Both the position numbers and the translations under genes were made by a program. Below the pieces are notes generated by a model that saw only the letters and a list, made by a program, of their open reading frames with translations, was not told the origin of the DNA and searched no databases. From assembly GCA_001723645.1 (NCBI GenBank), contig MDLC01000015.1:1-57238 (forward strand): a stretch of 57,238 nt of DNA, read 5' to 3'. Below are positions 41,581 through 53,173 of this stretch, piece by piece. Origin of the DNA: Candidatus Endobugula sertula. Its GTDB lineage: Bacteria; Pseudomonadota; Gammaproteobacteria; Pseudomonadales; Cellvibrionaceae. The number at the start of each line of letters is the position of its first letter. The first letter of the stretch is position 1.

Positions 41581-42474
41581 CTAAATTGATAGGCGATACC
41601 ATTGGGTATTTTTAATAGCCTTTAGATATCTCCTAGCTTTTTTGTGTTGTTCTAAAAACCTAGGACTTTGACTGGTTACTTCAAATCCAAATTGCTTTGG
41701 TAACTTTGTGTACATAGATTTGGGCAGCAATCCGTAGATTTTCTTAATTTTTCGCCCTGTGTCAAAAGTATGATAATAGATGGTCGAAATACCCAGCTTG
41801 TTGCGGATAAATTGAATAGCCGCTAGTAGTGAGAGTTCCGCCCATAATCTCTTATAAGGCTCTAATATGACTTCAGCATAGTGTTTAAATTCATTATACT
41901 CACAGTCAATACCATGGATAATATCGCCGGGTTTTACTGTGTTTTTCCCAGCATAGCACCTTGTAACACGCTGCATATCCCAGGTAACTCTACGGATCCA
42001 ATCATTTTGTACCTCTTCAATTAATGCTTCTCCTGTCGTAGGATCAAAATCTATTCTTACCCAAGATAATGTTTTGCGGTTATTTTGCCTAATAGGATGC
42101 CCTCTATATTCAAATGGGCCATAGCTATCATAAGGTTTTAGTAAACTATGGTAGTGTTGGTTATGTTCATTGCCAAAATTGATTTGTAAAACCAGATTTT
42201 GCTGATTTCTAGGTGTTTGATCATAACCTCTTTCGCTGTCACCCCACCGATCAAGTGTTAATGTAAAAGTTAATACATCATTGGGCCAGTAAGATTTAAG
42301 ATTATCTATTGGTAAATAACCATTGCCGCATCGTTTGATAATGTTTTTAACAATCGGTTTTGCGGCAAATAACTCTAAATAATAGCGATCCTTAAAATAA
42401 TGAAAGCCCCTTCTTTCATTACCTAAGCAATACAGTACATCCTCTAAATATTTACTCGTTAAAATCTCTACCAT
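41581..42474 (-). CDS. Uncharacterised protein, third gene of the rtcB-prfH operon (paralog B)
   Basis: 297 aa. The start overlaps the prfH stop by 23 nt. Shares long identical blocks with 39441..40397 but lacks about 25 aa near the N-terminus. Confidence 0.75.
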
Positions 42475-43135
42475 AAAAAGTACGTATAGGTTTACCCCTT
42501 TGCACTTCGTAGTGCTGTGACCATCGTGAACGTTCGAGTGATTTATTTTCTAAATCGTTTTGATTTGCCAGCAATAGTTGCAAACGCTCTAATGCGATTT
42601 GCTTATTTCTATGCTGGGAACGGTCTGATTCAACACGCACTTTTAAACCAGTTGTGCGATGAGTGATACGAACCGCACTATTGGTCTTATTGACATGTTG
42701 ACCACCTGGCCCTTTTGACCGCATAGTCTCCATATCGACTTCCTTCACTAATTCGTTGAACGTCTTCATACTATTACTAGGCATTGATAATGTCGCAATA
42801 CCCACGAACCAGTTGATGCGTTTATGCTTAGGTCGATAAGGGCTTTCACCTTGCCATTTAATAGTTCCTTGCCATTTATGAGCAAACCCATCAACCCCTT
42901 TGCCTTCTAAGCGGATCAATATCGACAAAAATGCATCAGGCTCAATCAATGTCTGATTTCGCAATAACTTATCAAATGCTAAGCTCTCAACGATTTCAGC
43001 AGACAGATTTTCTCTGTATGCTTCATCCAATAGAACTCGACTGAGCTGAGCAATAACCCAGCCGCATTCTTTAGGGCCTTGACCAGCCGTCAGTTGTAGC
43101 CATACAACTGACGATTTTTTATGCTTTGTTTCCAT
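42452..43135 (-). CDS. prfH: Peptide chain release factor H (PrfH)
   Basis: 227 aa. The RF-like GGQ domain reads [20 protein letters not shown] without a codon-recognition domain of RF1/2 size. Lies 2 nt downstream of rtcB, as in known rtcB2-prfH pairs. Confidence 0.88.
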
Positions 43136-43137
43136 AT

Positions 43138-44373
43138 TTATGTTCTCCGTGTTTTATAGGTGAGTAATGGTTTAAAGGTTGCAACGATATCAACCATACC
43201 GGCTTCCGCTAAGTCGCTCACCACCTGACTAATATTTTTGTAGGCTTGTGGGGCCTCTTCATAAAGTAGATCTCTTTGCTTACAAATAACACGGCTACCT
43301 AGTGAAGTTTTCTCTAAGTCTTTTACCTTAAAACGCTTTTCTAAGCGGCCTCGAGCATCACTGCGTTTCCATTTTCGGCCTGCACCATGTGCTAGAGAAA
43401 AACCTCCAAGAGCCAATGCACTTAGCTCATTAACTCTAGGTTTAACAAGATAACTTAAACTACCTCGAGATCCAGGTATCATTACTAAGCCCTTATTCGT
43501 TGGGCTTGCACCTTTACGGTGTATCCAATAACGTCTTTCTGAATCGATGTCTGACTTTGCGGCTGATTTTGCAGAAAGCCCCATTAGCTCAGTCTCAACA
43601 CTTGATAAAGCTTCAACCATATTGTGGGTGACATCGAACAAATAGCGTTGCTTTGTCTTTAACTGCTGACAAAAACGTTCTGCAATAAGTTCTCGATTTG
43701 CTTCAGCCCAACGGATAGCGTAATTGTGACGTTTTTGATACTGTTCATACTGATATTCATCTTGTATGGTTTCTAATGATTTTGAACCTAGGTTATCAAC
43801 ATGATCGCGAAGTATTTTTTGCCCTAAACCTCTAGAGCCGCTATGTACGAGTAAAAACACATGCTTTTTATCAATACCTAATCCATCAAATACATCACTA
43901 TCAATAATCTCATGAATCTGTTGCAATTCAGCAAAGTGATTATCGCCACCTATTGTTCCTAACTTGTGATGCTCTGTTAATGAAAAATCACCTTCAATTA
44001 TTAGACTGCGATCGCCCAACCATTCTTCCCTATTGCCATTCCATAGTTCATCAAGCCCAACAAGTTGTTTTTCCCATTTGTCTAATTTGACCTTTCTGGT
44101 CGGAATATCTAATTGCCATAAACCCATGCCACAACCAATATCACTACCCACCATATGGGGGTAGATACAGTTTTCCGTTACAAAAGCGGCGCCAATGGGT
44201 TGCCCTTTTCCTGGGTGTAGATCTGGCATACCAATACCGATACGCATACCCGGTAATTCCATTGTTTTTTTCAGCTGCGTAATGGCAGCGTCTTCTAACC
44301 AATTTTTGTCAGAGCTAATAATGCTCGTTCGACGATCCTCAGCTGTTTCGATATTTTTAAATAAAGTACTCAT
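43138..44373 (-). CDS. rtcB: RNA 3'-phosphate/5'-OH ligase RtcB (PrfH-associated type)
   Basis: [35 protein letters not shown] and HGAGR motifs. 411 aa. Confidence 0.93.
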
Positions 44374-48207: not shown

Positions 48208-48494
48208 TTTCTCCTTATAGCTGGCATCATAAAGATGCCTTTTATGAATAGGCGAGGCCCACTTGGTTTTAACGCGGTCGATAATTTGAATAGCCTAGGT
48301 CACTTATCTCAGCGGCTTGTTGCGCGGTTATCTTCACCCTGAAGAACAACATCCGTGTATGCTTTCCTTAGCGAATAACCGTGGTTCAAGCATAAAATAA
48401 TGACGTAAACGATTAACCCATCATCAACGGTATTAAAACCATTGCTAGCTAATCTATAGAAGCCTTAACCAGCAGTGAGCCTCTAGTGTTTTAT

Positions 48495-48541
48495 TGGTAA
48501 CAAACCAAGGGGATTCGAACCCCAGACTTTCGTCTTACCCA
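48495..48541 (-). other. tRNA 3'-half-like fragment (T-arm plus ..ACCA), no 5' half
   Basis: The minus strand reads TGGGTAAGACGAAAGTCTGGGGTTCGAATCCCCTTGGTTTGTTACCA. It directly abuts the CCA end of tRNA-Met. No complementary 5' acceptor strand was found. Confidence 0.45.
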
Positions 48542-48618
48542 TGGTGTTTTTGGCAGGATTCGAACCTGCTACCCATCGATTATGAATCGATTGCTCTACC
48601 CGTATGAGCTACAAAAAC
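48542..48618 (-). tRNA. tRNA with CAT anticodon (Met, or Ile if lysidine-modified), CCA encoded
   Basis: Hand fold: GTTTTTG TA GCTC ATACGGGTA GAGC A ATCGA TTCATAA TCGAT GGGTA GCAGG TTCGAAT CCTGC CAAAAAC A CCA. Confidence 0.85.
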
Positions 48619-48984
48619 CTATGCGTTGGAGGCATAGTTGTTTAGCGGGCTAGCGAATCGGTACACAGGACATTAAAAATGGCTGTGCCAGCCTGGCATA
48701 CGGAACCAGAGACACTGTTTCGTTAACTTGCGCATAAACATCGGTATGGAGTTAGACGCCAAAAAAGCGCCAAACTCCAAATACTTATCATCGAATATCG
48801 GAAACAACACTAAGGTGTTTGCCTTTTTCCTTATCGTACTCGGCAATTTCCATTTCTCCGTCAATTGGCGCTATTGTTACCAAATGATCAATTCGTGAAT
48901 ACATCTCTCCATGGTAGGCTTTTAGCTCGCCTTTTCCATTTTCATATCCTCATTGCTTATGAACTAAAGCCAATACAGTTTGGT

Positions 48985-49536
48985 TTAGCCACTCTTCCAT
49001 TTTCGTTGACTAGAAAATTGTTTAGTCAGATAGTCCATTTGATCGGCAATAATATGCCGATTAGTTAAATACAAATATTCAAAAGGATTCGGCGTAAACG
49101 GAACCGCTAATAAAAGCATATTTGCTTGTTCCGGTGTACGATTGCCTTTTGCATGATTGCAGCGCTTGCAGGCGGCCACGACATTTGTCCAACTATCGGC
49201 TCCACCTTGAGCACGCGGTACCACATGGTCACGGGTTAGTTCCTGTGCAAAAAATATTTGGCCGCAATATAAGCACACATAATTATCTCGACGAAATAAC
49301 ATAGCATTGCTAAATGAACGGACCTTCATACTTTTTCCGTGACCTTTAGTCGCAATCACTGGAGAAATATCAAGCATAGAACGTTCGCCATCGCGGTTGT
49401 AACCGCCCCGCATTAAGGCACCTTGTTCACCCATTTCCCACAGCACAAGTTTTTTGCTGTAAAGGGTTGTAGCAGCCTCCACTAATAGCCAATGCATCGG
49501 CATACCAGAGGGATTTAGGCGTAGTACTTTTTTCAT
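48985..49536 (-). CDS. HNH endonuclease
   Basis: CLYCG...TRDHVVPRAQGG..SW.NVVAACKRCNHAKGNRTP is a classic HNH-Cys4 motif. 183 aa. Confidence 0.88.
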   Translation of the reverse strand: MKKVLRLNPSGMPMHWLLVEAATTLYSKKLVLWEMGEQGALMRGGYNRDGERSMLDISPVIATKGHGKSMKVRSFSNAMLFRRDNYVCLYCGQIFFAQELTRDHVVPRAQGGADSWTNVVAACKRCNHAKGNRTPEQANMLLLAVPFTPNPFEYLYLTNRHIIADQMDYLTKQFSSQRKWKSG

Positions 49537-49578
49537 TACCTTGCGCCAAAAAATAAATCCATATGTGAATACACCAGC

Positions 49579-49875
49579 CTAATAGTATTTAATAAAGTTC
49601 ATACCATCAGCCGAGCGATAACCATTTGTTTCTAACAAATGGATCATCGCTTGTCGTTTTTGTAATTGCCTTTCTGTAACAACTACATAAAGCGGCATCA
49701 ATTGTTGATGGAGTGCCCATGTCAACAATTGGTGCCCATTTTCGCGACCAACTAAATAGTGATCCACATATAGCTGGGTTACACTATTTTTAAGCAATTG
49801 CTTTTTTGCTTTTCTTGCATCGTCACAGAAAACATCTGCGAAACGGTTTTGATTTTTGCTAACAGATAAACGCAT
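49579..49875 (-). CDS. Hypothetical protein inside the tRNA array
   Basis: 98-aa ORF, 33 nt downstream of tRNA-His. No family recognised. Confidence 0.45.
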   Translation of the reverse strand: MRLSVSKNQNRFADVFCDDARKAKKQLLKNSVTQLYVDHYLVGRENGHQLLTWALHQQLMPLYVVVTERQLQKRQAMIHLLETNGYRSADGMNFIKYY

Positions 49876-49908
49876 AATCCCTCCTGTGAGCTAGTGAGAA
49901 TATTTAGG

Positions 49909-49980
49909 GGTGACCGATGGGACTCGAACCCATATATACTTGAGCCACATTCAAGCGCATTACCGATCTGCCACGGCCAC
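49909..49980 (-). tRNA. tRNA-His (GTG), no encoded CCA (CCT) and no G-1
   Basis: Hand fold: GTGGCCG TG GCAG ATCGGTA ATGC G CTTGA ATGTGGC TCAAG TATAT ATGGG TTCGAGT CCCAT CGGTCAC C. Followed by CCT, and position -1 is T. Confidence 0.75.
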
Positions 49981-50011
49981 ACCTAAATATTCTGGGTAAT
50001 AAGAAATAATT

Positions 50012-50086
50012 TGGTCCGCCCGGTAGGATTTGAACCCACACCTGTCGGCTTAAAAGGCCGATGCGCTACCATTACGCCACGAACGG
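50012..50086 (-). tRNA. tRNA-Lys (TTT), CCA encoded
   Basis: Hand fold: CCGTTCG TG GCGT AATGGTA GCGC A TCGGC CTTTTAA GCCGA CAGGT GTGGG TTCAAAT CCTAC CGGGCGG A CCA. Confidence 0.85.
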
Positions 50087-50091
50087 AAAAT

Positions 50092-50170
50092 TGGCACCTG
50101 ACACAGGACTCGAACCTGCATCTCCCCGCTTCGTAGGCGGGTGCTCTAAATCCAATTGAGCTAATCAGGC
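50092..50170 (-). tRNA. tRNA-Arg (ACG), CCA encoded
   Basis: Hand fold: GCCTGAT TA GCTC AATTGGATTTA GAGC A CCCGC CTACGAA GCGGG GAGAT GCAGG TTCGAGT CCTGT GTCAGGT G CCA. Confidence 0.85.
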
Positions 50171-50176
50171 AAAATT

Positions 50177-50250
50177 TGGAGCCCAATACAGGACTCGAAC
50201 CTGTCTCTACTGCTTACAAGGCAGTTGCACAGCCGCTATGCCAATCGGGC
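50177..50250 (-). tRNA. tRNA-Thr (TGT), CCA encoded
   Basis: Hand fold: GCCCGAT TG GCAT AGCGGCT GTGC A ACTGC CTTGTAA GCAGT AGAG ACAGG TTCGAGT CCTGT ATTGGGC T CCA. Confidence 0.85.
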
Positions 50251-50290
50251 AAGTTAAGAAATTTTGTGAAATAAAAGACTGGAATCCTTT

Positions 50291-51487
50291 CTAGCCTTTT
50301 ACGTTGACGATTTGACGAAGCGTATGAACAACGTCAACAAGATCAGTTTGGTTATCCATAACATCATCAATTGGCTTATACGCCATGGGAATCTCATCGA
50401 TTACACCTTTGTCTTTACGGCATTCAATCCCCTCTGTTGCAGATACAAGATCACTTACAGAATAGGTTTTTGCAGCCGCAGTTCGACTTAGGCGACGTCC
50501 AGCGCCGTGAGAGCAAGAACAGAACGATTCTGATTCACCTTTACCACGAACAATAAAACTTTTATCGCCCATAGACCCAGGAATAATACCCAAATCATCT
50601 TTTCTTGCGCGGATAGCGCCTTTACGTGTAACCCATACGTTTTTACCAAAATGGTTTTCCTTTTCCACATAGTTATGATGACAATTGATGGCTTCTTGAG
50701 TGACCGCAAACGCTGGAAGATGTTTACGTAGCTCCATCATCACTGCATTCATCATATGTGTACGATTCAATGCAGCATAATCTTGCCCCCAAGATACTGC
50801 TTCGATGTAATCATCGTAATATTCTGATCCTTCAGATAGATAAGCCAAATCTTTATCGGGCAAATGGATCATCCATTTTTCCATTTCACGTTTCGCGATC
50901 TCGATAAAATGCATTCCAATTTTATTACCGATACCACGGCTTCCTGAATGCAGCATAATCCATACGTCTTGATTTTCATCCAAACACAACTCGATAAAGT
51001 GATTCCCTGAACCTAGCGTACCTAACTGCTTTGCAAAGGCATCATACTTAATACGTTTACTTATTTGAGGATGCTTCTCGAAGATAGTACTTAAACGCAT
51101 TGAAATATCATGGCCACCTGCAATTTTAGGGTCACGATGTTTTCCGCCTGCCCCCAAAGGCACAACAGATTCAATACGACTGCGAATAGCTTTCAAATTA
51201 TCAGGCAGATCTTTTGCCTTTAGCGATAGACGCACGGCATTCATACCACAACCAATATCCACGCCTACTGCAGCAGGGATAATCGCTTTATCGGTCGCGA
51301 TTACTGAACCCACAGTCGCTCCTTTACCCAAATGAACATCTGGCATTGCTGCTACATGTTTATAGACAAAGGGTAAATTCGCTACTCGGCTTAATTGTGC
51401 CTGTGTGTTGTAATCAATATCATCTGTCCAGATTTTTACAGGCACACGCTGATCTTTATGCGTTGCCAATACTTTTTTAATGGTCAT
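50291..51487 (-). CDS. rtcB: RNA ligase RtcB embedded in the tRNA array
   Basis: MPDVHLGKG, GVDIGCGM, GSGNHFIELC, HSGSRGIGN, HNY and HGAGR motifs. 398 aa. Lies 30 nt downstream of an oversized tRNA-like gene and 40 nt upstream of tRNA-Thr. Confidence 0.95.
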   Translation of the reverse strand: MTIKKVLATHKDQRVPVKIWTDDIDYNTQAQLSRVANLPFVYKHVAAMPDVHLGKGATVGSVIATDKAIIPAAVGVDIGCGMNAVRLSLKAKDLPDNLKAIRSRIESVVPLGAGGKHRDPKIAGGHDISMRLSTIFEKHPQISKRIKYDAFAKQLGTLGSGNHFIELCLDENQDVWIMLHSGSRGIGNKIGMHFIEIAKREMEKWMIHLPDKDLAYLSEGSEYYDDYIEAVSWGQDYAALNRTHMMNAVMMELRKHLPAFAVTQEAINCHHNYVEKENHFGKNVWVTRKGAIRARKDDLGIIPGSMGDKSFIVRGKGESESFCSCSHGAGRRLSRTAAAKTYSVSDLVSATEGIECRKDKGVIDEIPMAYKPIDDVMDNQTDLVDVVHTLRQIVNVKG

Positions 51488-51517
51488 AATTGCCTCCTTT
51501 AGTTATTTTATAATGAC

Positions 51518-51658
51518 TGGTTGGAGGTATAGGAATAACCTAAGCGCGTCCTGCGCTTAGCCTTTCAGATGCAAAGCAGTTCAAAATGCTCCCGGCATTT
51601 TGTCGAACCCATCTCGCCGGGGCAAAAACCCGGTGCTCAGCCACTAAGCCAACCTCCA
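51518..51658 (-). tRNA. Oversized (141 nt) tRNA-like gene with a 74-nt T-loop. The 7-nt anticodon loop reads TTTTTGC (UUU). CCA encoded.
   Basis: Hand fold: TGGAGGT TG GCT TAGTGGCTG AGC A CCGGG TTTTTGC CCCGG CGAG ATGGG [TTCGA CAAAATGC-CGGGA-GCATTTTG AACTGCTTTGCATCTGAAAGG CTAAGCGC-AGGAC-GCGCTTAG GTTATT] CCTAT ACCTCCA A CCA. Acceptor pairs 7/7 and T-stem 5/5. Confidence 0.6.
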
Positions 51659-51668
51659 GTTAAGTAAT

Positions 51669-51818
51669 TGGAGCGATGTATGGGAATCGAACCCATTTCC
51701 TCTGCTTGGACTGCTTTGCAGGAGCAAAAGCAGGACATCATGTAGTGGTGGTTGCGAAGCAATTGTGTATAGGGATATACACAACAACGCAGGTACCTCA
51801 CCATTCGGTTAACATCGC
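51669..51818 (-). tRNA. Oversized (150 nt) tRNA-like gene with an ~80-90 nt insertion in the anticodon arm. Anticodon undetermined. CCA encoded.
   Basis: 5' part: GCGATGT TA ACC GAATGGTGA GGT A CCTGC. 3' part: GCAGA GGAA ATGGG TTCGATT CCCAT ACATCGC T CCA. Acceptor pairs 7/7. The insert holds the hairpins TTGTGTATA-TCCC-TATACACAA and CTGCTTTTGC-TCCT-GCAAAGCAG. Confidence 0.55.
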
Positions 51819-51824
51819 ATAAAT

Positions 51825-51902
51825 TGGTCTGGGTGGTAGGGTTTGAACCTACGACCTTTGGGTTCCAAACCCAACACGCTAACCAAACTGCGCTACACCC
51901 AG
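51825..51902 (-). tRNA. tRNA-Pro (TGG), CCA encoded
   Basis: Hand fold: CTGGGTG TA GCGC AGTTTGGTTA GCGT G TTGGG TTTGGAA CCCAA AGGTC GTAGG TTCAAAC CCTAC CACCCAG A CCA. Confidence 0.9.
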
Positions 51903-51910
51903 AATAAATT

Positions 51911-52052
51911 TGGCGGTTCATACCACTTCCCATAAATAGAGAGGGAACCGGTGATCTCTCGGCTTATTCACATGAATGTAATGTATGCCGATTTTGCAGG
52001 AGCAAAAATCGGTGACAACCGAGCGCATTAAACCTGACTATGCTAATGAACC
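51911..52052 (-). tRNA. Oversized (142 nt) tRNA-Asp(GTC)-like gene with a 49-nt insertion after the anticodon loop and an expanded T-loop. CCA encoded.
   Basis: Hand fold: GGTTCAT TA GCAT AGTCAGGTTTA ATGC G CTCGG TTGTCAC [CGATTTTTGC-TCCT-GCAAAATCGG CATACATTACATTCATGTGAATAAG] CCGAG AGATC ACCGG [TTCCC TCTCTATTTAT GGGAA] GTGGT ATGAACC G CCA. Acceptor pairs 7/7. Confidence 0.6.
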
Positions 52053-52057
52053 TTAAT

Positions 52058-52133
52058 TGGTGGAGACCGTGGGAATCGAACCCACCACACAGTGCTTGCA
52101 AAGCATCGTCGCCCCCTTGATACATGGGCCCCC
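52058..52133 (-). tRNA. tRNA-Ala (TGC) with G3:U70, a poorly paired D-arm, CCA encoded
   Basis: Hand fold: GGGGGCC CA TGTATCAAGGGGGCGAC GATGC TTTGCAA GCACT GTGTG GTGGG TTCGATT CCCAC GGTCTCC A CCA. The G3-T70 wobble is present. No convincing D-stem. Confidence 0.7.
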
Positions 52134-52138
52134 AATTT

Positions 52139-52293
52139 TGGAGTGCGAGGCTGGGTGAAAGAAGTGTTGTTAGCAAAGCACTGCTTTGTACTTCTTGAAC
52201 GCCCAAAACTTATAATTTTTGGCCGGCCCGCTTGCGGCAAACCAGCGTATACGGAGGTTGCAGCTCCGCGCATCGTCTCTCTGCCACTCGCAC
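52139..52293 (-). tRNA. Oversized (155 nt) tRNA-Cys(GCA)-like gene with an 87-nt T-loop. U73, CCA encoded.
   Basis: Hand fold: GTGCGAG TG GCAG AGAGACG ATGC G CGGAG CTGCAAC CTCCG TATAC GCTGG [87 nt, including AAGAAGT..ACTTCTT and AAAGC-AGT-GCTTT hairpins] CCAGC CTCGCAC T CCA. Acceptor, anticodon and T stems all pair perfectly. Confidence 0.6.
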
Positions 52294-52310
52294 AAAATAG
52301 TTATTCAGAT

Positions 52311-52384
52311 TGGCAACAGCGTCAGGATTCGAACCTGGAATACCGGAGTCAAAGTCCAGTGTGTTACCGTTACACCACGCTGCT
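52311..52384 (-). tRNA. tRNA-Gln (TTG), G73, CCA encoded
   Basis: Hand fold: AGCAGCG TG GTGT AACGGTA ACAC A CTGGA CTTTGAC TCCGG TATT CCAGG TTCGAAT CCTGA CGCTGTT G CCA. One T-stem mismatch. Confidence 0.8.
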
Positions 52385-52392
52385 ATATTTTT

Positions 52393-52481
52393 TGGTCGTG
52401 AGGAGCGGGTTTGAACTCTCGCAGCACTCTTGTTACTGTGCGGATTAGCAATCCGCTGCCTTACCACTCGGCCACATTTCC
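52393..52481 (-). tRNA. tRNA-Ser(GCT)-like, probably defective (acceptor and T stems do not pair)
   Basis: Type II D-arm GCCGAGTGGTAAGGC, anticodon arm GCGGA TTGCTAA TCCGC, and a long variable arm. The 5' strand GGAAATG pairs at only 3 of 7 positions with CCTCACG, and the T-stem GAGAG/CCGCT is poor. Confidence 0.5.
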
Positions 52482-52487
52482 AATAAT

Positions 52488-52629
52488 TGGTTGCGGTGGC
52501 TGGAATAACCAAAGTACTTTCTGTACTTTGCTCTGCGAGTGCTTCGCTGCTCAAAATGCTCCAGGCATTTTGTCGAACCAACAAGTTCGGGCATATGAAA
52601 CCCGCGAGTAGCCATAGCTCAACACCGCT
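52488..52629 (-). tRNA. Oversized (142 nt) initiator-like tRNA (CAT) with the same 74-nt T-loop architecture as 51518..51658. CCA encoded.
   Basis: Hand fold: AGCGGTG TT GAGC TATGGCT A CTC G CGGGT TTCATAT GCCCG AACTT GTTGG [TTCGA CAAAATGC-CTGGA-GCATTTTG AGCAGCGAAGCACTCGCAGAG CAAAGTAC-AGAAA-GTACTTTG GTTATT] CCAGC CACCGCA A CCA. There is a 1:72 A-A mismatch, and the 3' end CCGCAACCA resembles remembered E. coli tRNA-fMet. Confidence 0.6.
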
Positions 52630-52640
52630 TCAAATAGTAG

Positions 52641-52715
52641 TAGGCCAAGGCGGATTCGAACCGCTCCTTATCCCGCTTATGAGGCGGGTGCATTCACCGA
52701 TTATGCTATTGGCCT
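52641..52715 (-). tRNA. tRNA with CAT anticodon (Met/Ile2 type), no CCA encoded
   Basis: Hand fold: AGGCCAA TA GCAT AATCGGTGA ATGC A CCCGC CTCATAA GCGGG ATAAGG AGCGG TTCGAAT CCGCC TTGGCCT A. Followed by CTA. Confidence 0.75.
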
Positions 52716-52725
52716 AATTTAAAAT

Positions 52726-52809
52726 TGGTGTAGGCAGATGGAGTTGAACCACCAAAGCTTTCGCGACCGGGTTACAACCGGCTAGAGTCACCACGTCTCT
52801 TCTGTGTAC
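52726..52809 (-). tRNA. tRNA-Tyr (GTA), type II, with two central acceptor mismatches. CCA encoded.
   Basis: Hand fold: GTACACA GA AGAG ACGTGGTGA CTCT A GCCGG TTGTAAC CCGGT CGCGAAAGCTTT GGTGG TTCAACT CCATC TGCCTAC A CCA. An alternative 5' strand GCAGGTA (to 52813) pairs 6/7 but leaves a 6-nt connector. Confidence 0.65.
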
Positions 52810-52818
52810 CTGCATAAT

Positions 52819-52895
52819 TGGCTCCGGCAGTTGGGATCGAACCAACGAACTCCTGATTAACAGTCAGGCGCATTACCACTCTGCTTCACACCGGA
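52819..52895 (-). tRNA. tRNA-Asn (GTT), CCA encoded
   Basis: Hand fold: TCCGGTG TGAAGCAGAGTGGTAATGC G CCTGA CTGTTAA TCAGG AGTTC GTTGG TTCGATC CCAAC TGCCGGA G CCA. The D-stem is shifted (GCA/TGC). Confidence 0.8.
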
Positions 52896-52902
52896 ATAAA
52901 AT

Positions 52903-52979
52903 TGGTACAGTGAGCTGGACTCGAACCAGCACTCTCCTGATCTTCAATCAAGCGCTCTACCAATTGGAGCTATCACTGC
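52903..52979 (-). tRNA. tRNA-Phe (GAA), CCA encoded
   Basis: Hand fold: GCAGTGA TA GCTC CAATTGGTA GAGC G CTTGA TTGAAGA TCAGG AGAGT GCTGG TTCGAGT CCAGC TCACTGT A CCA. Confidence 0.9.
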
Positions 52980-52987
52980 CGTTTTAT

Positions 52988-53173
52988 TTGGCACGCGGTG
53001 AAAGAAAAGTATCAAACCTCATCGAGGAGTGGAACGACAGCAATAAAATTGATCCTGAACGGCTAGAAGACCAGCTCACACCAGAGCGTTATAGGGCGCT
53101 ATTTGATACCCTCGTAGATTGGAATGACTATCTTGACAACCATGCACCGGATATCAAGGAGTTGTTGCTATGA
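52988..53173 (+). CDS. Small hypothetical protein upstream of mobC (start uncertain, TTG)
   Basis: The part of track ORF 52910..53173 that lies outside tRNA-Phe. Its stop overlaps the mobC-like start (ATGA). Confidence 0.3.
   Translation: MARGERKVSNLIEEWNDSNKIDPERLEDQLTPERYRALFDTLVDWNDYLDNHAPDIKELLL

What the first reader, a model, noticed from the sequence alone, without database searches (positions are those of the whole stretch)
51669..51818. 150-nt tRNA-like gene whose insert shares a covarying hairpin with the Asp-like gene
**What pairs and what does not.**
- The acceptor pairs 7/7 (GCGATGT/ACATCGC) and the T-arm is canonical (ATGGG TTCGATT CCCAT).
- About 90 nt separate the two anticodon-stem strands (CCTGC ... 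GCAGA).
- I could not assign an anticodon.

**Shared hairpin.**
- The insert contains CTGCTTTTGC-TCCT-GCAAAGCAG.
- It has the same TTTTGC-TCCT-GCAAA core and bulged T as the hairpin in 51911..52052.
- Its outer stem is compensated: CTGC/GCAG here against CCGA/TCGG there.

**Inference.** A common structured insert in two different tRNA bodies suggests a mobile or functional RNA module.
Basis: partly seen in the sequence, partly recalled or inferred. Interest (0 to 1): 0.7.

Follow-up and report, generated by a model that had tools for sequence, protein, structure and literature searches.

The report
Mobile hairpin element splitting tRNA-Gly gene
The 150-nt "tRNA-like gene" is a glycine tRNA gene cut in its anticodon loop by a 76-nt copy of a previously undescribed family of tiny four-hairpin mobile elements that land almost only in the loops of tRNA genes in an RNA-repair island.

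Summary
Window 51669-51818 (minus strand) has a 7/7 acceptor stem, a canonical T arm, an encoded CCA, and 83 nt between the two anticodon-stem strands.

It is a tRNA-Gly(UCC) gene. Sister genomes, whose adjacent RtcB is 91-92% identical, carry the same gene uninterrupted. The extra 76 nt (window 51710-51785) is one copy of a repeated element with four covarying hairpins: 18 of 26 pairs show compensatory changes and 0 of 500 shuffles reach the observed values.

Copies sit in different tRNA genes in different strains and in both orientations. They always follow T-W-N-G|A in a loop (T-loop 57/58 or an anticodon loop) and make no target duplication. The copy in this gene is inverted and sits where the antisense strand reads TTGG|AAG, which points to insertion at the DNA level.

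The hairpin shared with the Asp-like gene is the terminal hairpin module of two related element types. All five oversized genes here are tRNA genes (Met, Cys, Asp, Gly, Lys) carrying such inserts.

The host is an accessory tRNA array linked to RtcB and an HNH nuclease. The most likely outcome is gene inactivation. Excision at the RNA level with RtcB ligation is not excluded.

The parts
51669..51818 (-). Gene D: tRNA-Gly(UCC) gene interrupted in the anticodon loop (150 nt, CCA encoded)
   Evidence: Exons align to the uninterrupted tRNA-Gly(tcc) at L291 4812-4885 and L289 4814-4887, with 5 differences in 74 nt including a compensated 4:69 pair. After a 76-nt deletion ARAGORN calls tRNA-Gly(tcc). 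The Rfam tRNA model does not match the unspliced gene.
51710..51785 (+). Type I insertion element, 76 nt, in its own 'AGGA-loop' orientation, which is antisense to the tRNA. It lies between tRNA positions 33/34 or 34/35 (1-nt ambiguity).
   Evidence: Pairwise alignment with the empty site. Scores 88.3 bits against model R1, which was built from the nine copies including this one. Alignment A1.
51711..51733 (+).
   Evidence: The outer stem covaries among copies: CAATTTTGC/GCAAAAATTG, AACTTTGC/GCAAAAGTT, AAGTTTGT/ACAAACTT, CTGCTTTGC/GCAAAAGCAG.
51736..51750 (+). Hairpin H2 (catca-tgtag-tggtg)
   Evidence: A1 helix 2: 3 of 5 pairs have changes on both sides.
51752..51762 (+). Hairpin H3 (ttgc-gaa-gcaa)
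   Evidence: A1 helix 3: 3 of 5 pairs have changes on both sides.
51763..51784 (+). Hairpin H4 (ttgtgtata-ggga-tatacacaa)
   Evidence: A1 helix 4: 7 of 7 pairs have changes on both sides and 100% of cells are paired.
51911..52052 (-). Gene C: tRNA-Asp(GUC) gene with two inserts
   Evidence: ARAGORN calls tRNA-Asp(gtc) only after deleting 49 nt in the anticodon loop plus about 14 nt in the T-loop.
51963..52011 (-). Type II element (49 nt) in the anticodon loop of gene C; it carries the shared TCCT hairpin
   Evidence: Alignment A3 with 50-nt copies in the D-loops of L292 Thr and Ser, L291 and L290 Phe. The empty Thr site is in the window at 50177-50250.
51518..51658 (-). Gene E: tRNA-Lys(UUU) gene with a 67-nt type I' element at 51537-51603 in the T-loop (TTCG|ATT)
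   Evidence: The uninterrupted orthologue lies directly upstream of rtcB in L289, L290 and L291. The same insert is present in the strain whose RtcB is 98% identical, L296. Alignment A4.
52488..52629 (-). Gene A: tRNA-Met(CAU) gene with a 67-nt type I' element at 52507-52573 in the T-loop
   Evidence: The empty site L291 4072-4146 reads GTTGG-TTCGATT-CCAAC, and removing the element restores TTCG+ATT. ARAGORN calls Met(cat) after a 65-68-nt deletion.
52139..52293 (-). Gene B: tRNA-Cys(GCA) gene with an 83-nt element of another type at 52155-52237 in the T-loop
   Evidence: Empty site at L291 4574-4648. The same element type sits in the T-loop of tRNA-Glu in L291, and L289 has the empty Glu site.
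50291..51487 (-). rtcB (3'-phosphate/5'-OH RNA ligase), immediately downstream of genes D and E inside the array
   Evidence: Pfam RtcB, E = 1.7e-129.
48985..49536 (-). 183-aa HNH nuclease conserved next to these arrays
   Evidence: Pfam HNH_5/HNH. The HNH domain is closest to IscB/Cas9d HNH domains. The same gene is present in L289-L292. PMC8421152 reports an HNH gene linked to L-arrays.

Best explanation
**What it is**
- The locus is a tRNA-Gly(UCC) gene in an accessory, island-borne tRNA array. The array is linked to RtcB, an HNH nuclease, a CCA-adding enzyme and PrfH/RtcB2.
- A 76-nt non-autonomous mobile DNA element has split the gene in its anticodon loop.

**The element family**
- Type I elements are four consecutive hairpins. 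The two terminal hairpins carry AGGA-type loops, and H1 has a conserved extrahelical base.
- Copies insert without target duplication, immediately 3' of T-W-N-G and 5' of A.
- Targets are the 7-nt loops of tRNA genes: T-loop 57|58, or anticodon loops whose sense or antisense strand offers that sequence.
- In gene D the antisense strand of the Gly anticodon loop (TTGG|AAG) supplies the target, so the element lies inverted.

**Related element types**
- Types I' and II, plus a further type in the Cys gene, account for the other four oversized genes.
- The hairpin shared with the Asp gene is the terminal hairpin common to type I and type II.

**Inferred, not shown**
- Movement goes through a single-stranded DNA intermediate. 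An enzyme supplied in trans recognises the subterminal hairpins, in the manner of IS200/IS605 elements.
- The insert inactivates the tRNA. This is tolerated because array tRNAs duplicate housekeeping genes.
For: **Empty versus filled sites**
- Orthologues of D (Gly), E (Lys), A (Met) and B (Cys) are uninterrupted in L289 and L291. Conversely Phe, Arg(ACG), Tyr, Glu, Thr and Ser are interrupted there but intact in the window or in L292.
- Removing the element restores the native loop exactly. In Met, TTCG+ATT is restored; in Gly, CT|TCCAA.

**Family and structure**
- Nine type I copies align end to end (A1).
- 94.9% of cells are paired, 18 of 26 pairs change on both sides, and 0 of 500 shuffles reach the observed values. 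Slid controls give 32-49% paired.

**Distribution**
All E < 0.01 matches lie in tRNA arrays.
- These include distant arrays: L041 and two copies in L085.
- The window has no copy outside the array.

**Target rule and orientation**
- Left flanks are TTCG, TTTG, TTCA, TACG, TTGG, TTAG and GTCG. Most elements start with AC(A).
- Inverted copies (D, L041, L085 336-418) sit where the opposite strand carries the motif.

**Strand bias**
- G:U pairs outnumber A:C pairs 26 to 4 on the AGGA strand. One particular strand is the folded one.

**Decay of interrupted genes**
- The interrupted Arg copies have a broken 31:39 pair. L290 also loses G53:C61. L291 loses an acceptor nucleotide.
- Phe has acquired a second insert in L290 and L291.
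- Gene C has two inserts.

**Context**
- L-arrays linked to HNH and rtcB are known. The Anabaena array contains pseudogenes (PMC8421152).
Against: - No transposase was found in the window or in the flanks of related loci.
- The hairpins begin only 2-5 nt from the element ends, unlike characterised IS200/IS605 ends. The 3' terminal tetranucleotide is not conserved.
- All four hairpins covary, including the two internal ones, which a transposase might not need.
- The folded strand is the transcribed tRNA-sense strand in 10 of 13 copies. This also fits selection on the RNA.
- The exons of the five window genes are structurally intact. D and E even show compensated stem changes relative to their orthologues.
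- The decay argument rests on few substitutions. Array segments have mosaic histories: tRNA identity between L289 and L291 ranges from 89% to 100%.
- Whole genomes could not be searched, so restriction of the elements to arrays is not proven.
Confidence: 0.7

Rival explanations
1. Mobile mini-intron. The element is transcribed within the pre-tRNA, cut out by a structure-specific RNase that leaves 2',3'-cyclic phosphate and 5'-OH ends, and the exons are joined by the co-transcribed RtcB. Insertion would then be nearly harmless. This would be a new, protein-dependent tRNA splicing pathway in bacteria.
For: - rtcB lies inside every array that carries these elements.
- Inserts are only in loops, never in stems, and removal restores perfect loops.
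- The exons of A, B, D and E are intact, with compensated stem changes.
- All four hairpins are under structural selection, with a G:U bias on the strand that is usually the transcript.
- Several inserts per tRNA also occur in archaeal tRNAs (established knowledge).
- Cys, Asp and Gly are represented in this array only by interrupted genes.
Against: - D, L041 and one L085 copy are inverted, so their transcripts carry the complement: UCCU loops, and A:C where the other strand has G:U.
- I found no bulge-helix-bulge motif at the junctions. Only a 4-bp CTGC/GCAG helix is present, without flanking helices (inspection).
- There is no EndA-like, HEPN or other obvious RNase in the island.
- No ribozyme or intron family matches at E <= 10.
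- Older interrupted genes show stem defects and further insertions.
- RtcB is also linked to arrays and loci without inserts, for example L003 and L001.
Confidence: 0.15
2. Functional chimeric RNA. The 150-nt product is used as it is, as a tRNA-shaped scaffold carrying extra hairpins. It could act as a decoy or sponge for anticodon or T-loop nucleases, or as a Y-RNA-like partner of the repair proteins.
For: - The island is an RNA-repair and translation-stress island: RtcB, PrfH/RtcB2, a CCA-adding enzyme, SPFH and a phosphoesterase.
- PMC8421152 speculates that array tRNAs may sponge toxin RNases.
- The acceptor, D and T arms of D are intact, so RNase P and the CCA enzyme could still act on it.
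- The fold is significantly stable.
Against: - The same tRNA is uninterrupted in sister strains, and the insert sits in different tRNAs in each strain. No particular chimera is conserved.
- T-loop inserts would disrupt the tRNA elbow.
- There is no Rfam YrlA or Y RNA match at the locus.
- No Ro/TROVE gene was seen among the island ORFs scanned.
Confidence: 0.08
3. Scars of tyrosine-integrase integration. The inserts are what remains of genomic islands or phages that integrated in the anticodon loop or T-loop and were later deleted internally.
For: - The anticodon loop and T-loop are the classical integrase crossover sublocations (established knowledge; PMC4383910 abstract).
- L288 shows a related hairpin next to a duplicated 3' end of tRNA-Phe.
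Against: - There is no duplication of the loop or of the 3' tRNA segment at any of the sites compared.
- The inserts are full-length, homologous and structured units of constant size, not random remnants.
- D-loop sites are also used.
Confidence: 0.03

Closest known systems
IS200/IS605-family transposons and their miniature derivatives (PATEs)
   Same: - Subterminal hairpins at both ends, with an extrahelical base.
- Insertion 3' of a short specific sequence.
- No target-site duplication.
- Orientation tied to the strand that carries the target.
- One strand is the structured one.
- Non-autonomous and very short.
   Different: - No TnpA or TnpB gene was seen.
- The hairpins lie almost at the element ends.
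- Two extra internal hairpins covary.
- The 3' cleavage tetranucleotide is not conserved.
- The target must lie in a hairpin loop of a tRNA gene. I know of no IS200/IS605 element described with that specificity.
Classical bacterial MITEs (terminal inverted repeats plus target duplication)
   Same: - Small, non-coding, repeated and highly structured.
- Presence/absence polymorphism between strains.
- One neighbour array (L048 1021-1435) does hold a TIR-type insert in a tRNA-His T-loop.
   Different: - No terminal inverted repeat between the two ends.
- No target-site duplication.
- Strict loop targeting.
Archaeal bulge-helix-bulge tRNA introns joined by RtcB
   Same: - Short inserts in anticodon, T and D loops.
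- Sometimes several per tRNA.
- An RtcB ligase is encoded nearby.
   Different: - Bacterial host.
- No BHB motif and no EndA.
- Copies are homologous to each other and occur in both orientations.
Group I introns in bacterial tRNA anticodon loops
   Same: A mobile insert in the anticodon loop of a bacterial tRNA gene.
   Different: - 76 nt instead of 200 nt or more.
- No catalytic core and no Rfam match.
- T-loops and D-loops are also used.
Long tRNA arrays (L-arrays) such as the Anabaena trn operon (PMC8421152)
   Same: - An accessory tRNA operon on a mobile island.
- Linked to an HNH gene and rtcB.
- The Anabaena array contains pseudogenes, and insertions and deletions are frequent between arrays.
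   Different: That work does not describe loop-specific hairpin elements. Here they interrupt 5 of about 18 genes.

Membership tests
tRNA (Rfam RF00005) - gene D | Cloverleaf with acceptor, D, anticodon and T arms, and a 7-nt anticodon loop | tested here: met
   Met only after removing 76 nt. ARAGORN then calls tRNA-Gly(tcc), and 69 of 74 exon positions match the intact orthologue. The unspliced gene is not matched by RF00005.
tRNA-Gly identity | G1:C72, C2:G71, G3:C70, U73, C35, C36 (established identity set for bacterial tRNA-Gly) | tested here: met
   GCG.../...CGC with discriminator T, and the anticodon TCC read directly from the sequence.
Group I intron | Conserved P3-P9 catalytic core, usually 200 nt or more | tested here: not met
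   The insert is 76 nt. No Intron_gpI or any ribozyme match at E <= 10 in 48300-53100.
Archaeal-type BHB intron | Two 3-nt bulges separated by a 4-bp helix and flanked by helices, with the splice sites in the bulges | tested here: not met
   Manual threading of the junctions in D and C. CTGC/GCAG can form the 4-bp helix, but neither flanking helix exists. No program was run for this.
Archaeal-type BHB intron | A splicing endonuclease (EndA family) in the genome | not testable with these tools
   None among the island ORFs scanned. The rest of the genome is not available.
IS200/IS605-derived miniature element | Subterminal imperfect hairpins at both ends | tested here: met
   H1 and H4 both have AGGA/GGGA loops, and H1 has a conserved bulged base.
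IS200/IS605-derived miniature element | Insertion 3' of a specific 4-5-nt sequence, without target duplication, in a fixed orientation relative to that sequence | tested here: met
   T-W-N-G|A at all type I and I' sites. Empty sites are restored exactly, with only a 1-nt 'A' ambiguity. Inverted copies use the opposite strand.
IS200/IS605-derived miniature element | A cognate Y1 HUH transposase (TnpA) in the same genome, and conserved cleavage tetranucleotides paired to guide sequences | not testable with these tools
   No TnpA in the window or in the 11-kb flanks. The 3' terminal tetranucleotides vary: AACA, TGCA, CAAC, GGTT.
Classical MITE | Terminal inverted repeats and a target-site duplication | tested here: not met
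   The ends ACAGC... and ...AACA are not inverted repeats, and there is no duplication at any compared site.
Integrase att scar in a tRNA gene | Direct repeat of the crossover segment or 3' tRNA part at both ends | tested here: not met
   No repeat at the Gly, Lys, Met, Cys, Thr or Glu sites.
Bacterial Y RNA (YrlA) | Ro-binding stem formed by the 5' and 3' ends plus an internal tRNA-like module, next to rsr | tested here: not met
   The ends of D form an acceptor stem with CCA. There is no YrlA match at the locus and no TROVE gene among the scanned ORFs.
L-array tRNA operon (PMC8421152) | A dense run of many tRNA genes on an accessory element, with linked HNH and rtcB | tested here: met
   12 ARAGORN tRNAs, 1 Rfam-only Ser and 5 interrupted genes lie in 48.5-53.0 kb, with rtcB and HNH inside the array. 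MobC, relaxase and resolvase genes lie next to it.

The most novel reading that the evidence does not exclude
These elements may be a new class of bacterial tRNA intron. They would be selfish hairpin elements that spread at the DNA level into tRNA loops but are removed from the transcript by a structure-specific endonuclease and RtcB ligation. That would explain why they are confined to RtcB-linked tRNA arrays, and why all four hairpins and the host exons stay intact.
Probability: 0.15. Interest if true: 0.9.

Novelty: new variant of a known kind. Interest (0 to 1): 0.6.

Why it matters
**Annotation.** The finding explains why tRNA finders miss about a quarter of the genes in this kind of array. 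Five of about 18 genes here are missed, and ARAGORN's intron mode mis-assigns one of them.

**Mobile elements.** It defines a compact element family (50-83 nt) whose targets are the loops of tRNA genes. I could not find this specificity described in the literature I searched.

**Reading the arrays.** Accessory tRNA arrays appear to be the places where insertions lethal elsewhere can persist. That matters when judging how many array tRNAs are functional under translational stress.

**Bacterial RNA biology.** If the inserts turn out to be removed from the RNA with the help of the adjacent RtcB, bacteria would have a protein-dependent tRNA splicing pathway. That would address the long-standing question of what bacterial RtcB is for.

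Tried and rejected
**Collection searches that found no relative**
- Phage and plasmid BLAST of the region and of the inserts returned only tRNA and RtcB matches.
- The viral-contig scan for the 15-mer gave 120 or more hits. All are chance or coding matches, with no extended element and no tRNA context.
- The metagenome scan with RtcB gave nothing closer than 68% identity. It did reveal other arrays with oversized genes.

**Readings and tests set aside**
- ARAGORN's intron-mode reading, Asn(gtt) plus a 74-nt intron, is rejected in favour of Gly(UCC) on orthology.
- Ribozyme, group I intron and Y RNA were all checked: no Rfam match.
- The BHB motif was not found by hand.
- A substitution-rate test was tried. 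Interrupted Arg exons are 90% identical between L289 and L291, against 96.6% for intact tRNAs. It is inconclusive, because the neighbouring intact Thr is also 89% and the arrays are mosaic.

**Possible source of the enzyme**
- I looked for a transposase or RNase among unannotated island ORFs. There were no Pfam or NCBIfam hits for the 318-, 297- and 114-aa ORFs.

**A lead not resolved**
- L288, an enterobacterial tRNA-Phe locus, carries a related hairpin but an unclear architecture.

Full report
**1. The observation**

On the minus strand, 51818-51669 reads:

GCGATGT-TA-ACC-GAATGGTGA-GGT-A-CCTGC-[83 nt]-GCAGA-GGAA-ATGGG-TTCGATT-CCCAT-ACATCGC-T-CCA.

- The acceptor stem pairs 7/7, the T arm is canonical and CCA is encoded.
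- The hairpin CTGCTTTTGC-TCCT-GCAAAGCAG is at 51711-51733.
- The Asp-like gene has CCGATTTTTGC-TCCT-GCAAAATCGG at 51988-52012.
- The exact 15-mer core occurs only at these two places in the window.
- Default ARAGORN and Rfam do not call the locus.
- The RNA folds better than shuffles, z = -4.5.
- Two Logan assemblies are 100% identical over 52848-46291.

**2. Context**

The window holds a gammaproteobacterial chromosome segment (zapA, 6S RNA, 5-FTHF cyclo-ligase) followed by an island from about 39 kb to 57 kb. The island contains:

- PrfH and RtcB2;
- a CCA-adding enzyme, a phosphoesterase and an SPFH protein;
- an HNH nuclease and a small cREC-like protein;
- RtcB and a tRNA array;
- MobC, a relaxase, an RHH-PIN pair and a resolvase.

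The array runs on the minus strand from 52979 to 48542. It has 12 ARAGORN tRNAs, one weak Ser and five oversized genes.

Arrays of this kind (L-arrays) linked to an HNH gene and rtcB, and induced by translational stress, are described in PMC8421152.

**3. Identity of the five oversized genes**

I deleted internal segments computationally and re-ran ARAGORN:

| Gene | Call after deletion | Segment removed |
|---|---|---|
| A | Met(cat) | 65-68 nt, T-loop |
| B | Cys(gca) | 78-83 nt, T-loop |
| C | Asp(gtc) | 49 nt in the anticodon loop plus about 14 nt in the T-loop |
| D | Gly(tcc) | 76 nt; other spurious calls also appear |
| E | Lys(ttt) | ARAGORN accepts many deletion sizes; the element is 67 nt by comparison with the empty site |

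ARAGORN's intron mode reads D as Asn(gtt) plus a 74-nt intron. Comparison with the intact orthologue (section 4) shows this to be wrong.

**4. Relatives decide the matter**

A protein search with RtcB found relatives at 91-98% identity. Their contigs (L289-L296) have the same synteny. Findings from blastn and pairwise alignment:

- **D.** Its exons equal the uninterrupted tRNA-Gly(tcc) of L291 (4812-4885) and L289 (4814-4887). The native loop is CCTGC-CTTCCAA-GCAGA. D has 76 extra nt between positions 33/34 or 34/35 and a C32-to-G change. The 4:69 pair changed G:C to A:U in a compensated way.
- **E.** It equals the uninterrupted tRNA-Lys directly upstream of rtcB in L289, L290 and L291.
- **A.** It equals an uninterrupted tRNA-Met (T-loop TTCGATT).
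- **B.** It equals an uninterrupted tRNA-Cys.
- **The converse.** Phe, Arg(ACG), Tyr, Glu, Thr, Ser, His and others are interrupted in one or more relatives. They are intact in the window or in another relative.

**5. The element family**

Nine type I copies align over their whole length (A1). They come from the following sites:

- Gly anticodon loop (window);
- Phe T-loop, three copies;
- Tyr T-loop;
- Arg anticodon loop, three copies;
- the T-loop of a large L292 gene.

RNAalifold predicts four hairpins. 18 of 26 pairs have compensatory changes. The counts on that structure are:

- 94.9% of cells are paired, against 82.4% in shuffles;
- 0 of 500 shuffles reach any of the measures;
- sliding the partners by 1-3 columns drops pairing to 32-49%.

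- All matches with E < 0.01 lie in tRNA arrays.
- They include distant arrays: L041 (inverted copy in a Trp-like gene), L085 (two copies, one inverted) and L291 6612-6699.
- Two weak, rearranged matches lie in the array leader of L291 and L289.

Other types:

- **Type I'.** Genes A and E and L290 His; alignment A4.
- **Type II.** Gene C, plus 50-nt copies in the D-loops of L292 Thr and Ser, L291 and L290 Phe; alignment A3.
- **Cys/Glu type.** Gene B and the L291 Glu gene.

**6. Insertion rule**

- For type I and I', the four nucleotides 5' of the element are TTCG, TTTG, TTCA, TACG, TTGG, TTAG or GTCG.
- Most elements begin with AC(A), and the next host nucleotide is A.
- In T-loops this is position 57|58. 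In tRNA-Arg(ACG) it is 36|37.
- In D the motif TTGG|AAG is on the antisense strand of the Gly anticodon loop, and the element is inverted accordingly.
- There is no target duplication, only a 1-nt ambiguity.
- This strand-coupled, sequence-specific and duplication-free pattern argues for insertion at the DNA level.
- It resembles IS200/IS605-type single-strand transposition, as do the subterminal hairpins and the extrahelical base. This comparison draws on established knowledge of that family, not on a test made here.
- G:U pairs outnumber A:C pairs 26 to 4 on the AGGA strand.
- No transposase was found.
- The array-linked HNH protein has an IscB/Cas9-like HNH domain. This is only a lead.

**7. 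Consequence for the tRNA**

Evidence for inactivation:

- Interrupted Arg genes shared by L289, L290 and L291 have a broken 31:39 pair.
- L290 also has a G53:A61 mismatch, and L291 has lost one acceptor nucleotide.
- Phe carries a second insert in L290 and L291, with loss of part of the anticodon arm in L291.
- Gene C has two inserts.

Evidence that keeps an RNA-level removal model alive:

- rtcB is always adjacent.
- The exons in the window are intact.
- All four hairpins covary.
- The folded strand is usually the transcript.
- Cys, Asp and Gly exist in this array only as interrupted genes.

Evidence against that model:

- Some copies are inverted.
- I found no BHB motif, endonuclease or ribozyme (inspection).

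The substitution-rate test was inconclusive.

**8. Comparison with what is known**

- The array context is known (PMC8421152).
- Small structured non-autonomous elements are a known kind.
- Loop-specific colonisation of tRNA genes by a four-hairpin element did not appear in the literature searches.
- I therefore file it as a new variant of a known kind.
- The untested intron reading is the most novel possibility left open.

Noticed in passing
window 42452-44373 (-): A PrfH-like RF-1-domain protein (227 aa) sits directly downstream of a second, divergent RtcB (411 aa). This matches the RtcB2-PrfH ribosome-repair pair, so the island carries two RtcB systems.
   Followed up: partly
window 52406-52481 (-): tRNA-Ser(GCU)-like gene seen only by Rfam at 30.5 bits and missed by ARAGORN. 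By my reading its T stem does not pair, so it may be a decayed array member.
   Followed up: no
window 51620-51636 (-), gene E anticodon loop: The E anticodon loop reads TTTTTGC, whereas its intact Lys orthologues have CTTTTAA (C32U, A37G, A38C, with a compensated 31:39 change). TTTTTGC is also the first 7 nt of the type II hairpin strand. I have no explanation.
   Followed up: no
L288 8279-8520 (IMG/VR contig, enterobacterial tRNA-Phe): After an intact tRNA-Phe and its terminator comes a 118-nt segment. It holds a type I'-like H1 (AAAAATGC-TCCCG-GCATTTTT) and an H4-like GCCACA-GGGA-TGTGGC. It is followed by a duplicated 17-nt tRNA 3' end plus terminator. This may be a relative of the family outside tRNA arrays. 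E. coli genomes lack the segment.
   Followed up: partly
L003 4741-4905; L290 3667-3813; L292 1509-1655: A small basic ORF is embedded in the arrays, for example ...NPVFGQRVVKAGKGKGSYTRV. From memory it resembles the alternative ribosome-rescue factor ArfA. I did not test this with a profile.
   Followed up: no
L001 5590-5660; L002 5010-5080; L003 3530-3640; L291 3010-3050: A conserved leader lies upstream of the arrays or of rtcB: a purine-rich segment followed by a terminator-like hairpin ending in GGGTTTTTTTATGCC. It may be an attenuator or other regulatory RNA for the operon.
   Followed up: no
L289 4626-4813; L290 4733-4889; L291 4649-4811: A Pro-like tRNA gene whose anticodon region is replaced by another insert (AAAATACATCCAAGTATTTT hairpin plus CCCTTCGGG). 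This is yet another element type in the same arrays.
   Followed up: no
L048 1021-1435: A tRNA-His-like gene in a Granulosicoccus MAG array carries an insert of about 230 nt in the T-loop. It is bounded by a perfect 22-bp inverted repeat (CTAGCCCGGACTATTCATGAAA), which makes it a classical TIR-type MITE unlike the hairpin elements.
   Followed up: no
L002 5922-5975: Directly after tRNA-Gln lies a 54-nt remnant homologous to gene B/tRNA-Cys. It has an acceptor-like CATGCG/CGCATG stem, the anticodon arm (GCA) and a T arm, but no D arm.
   Followed up: no
window 52980-53170: The array starts abruptly with tRNA-Phe next to divergently oriented MobC and relaxase genes. Relatives have Glu and Trp (and Ile in L003) upstream of Phe. 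The window array therefore looks truncated at its 5' end and may lack its native promoter and leader.
   Followed up: no
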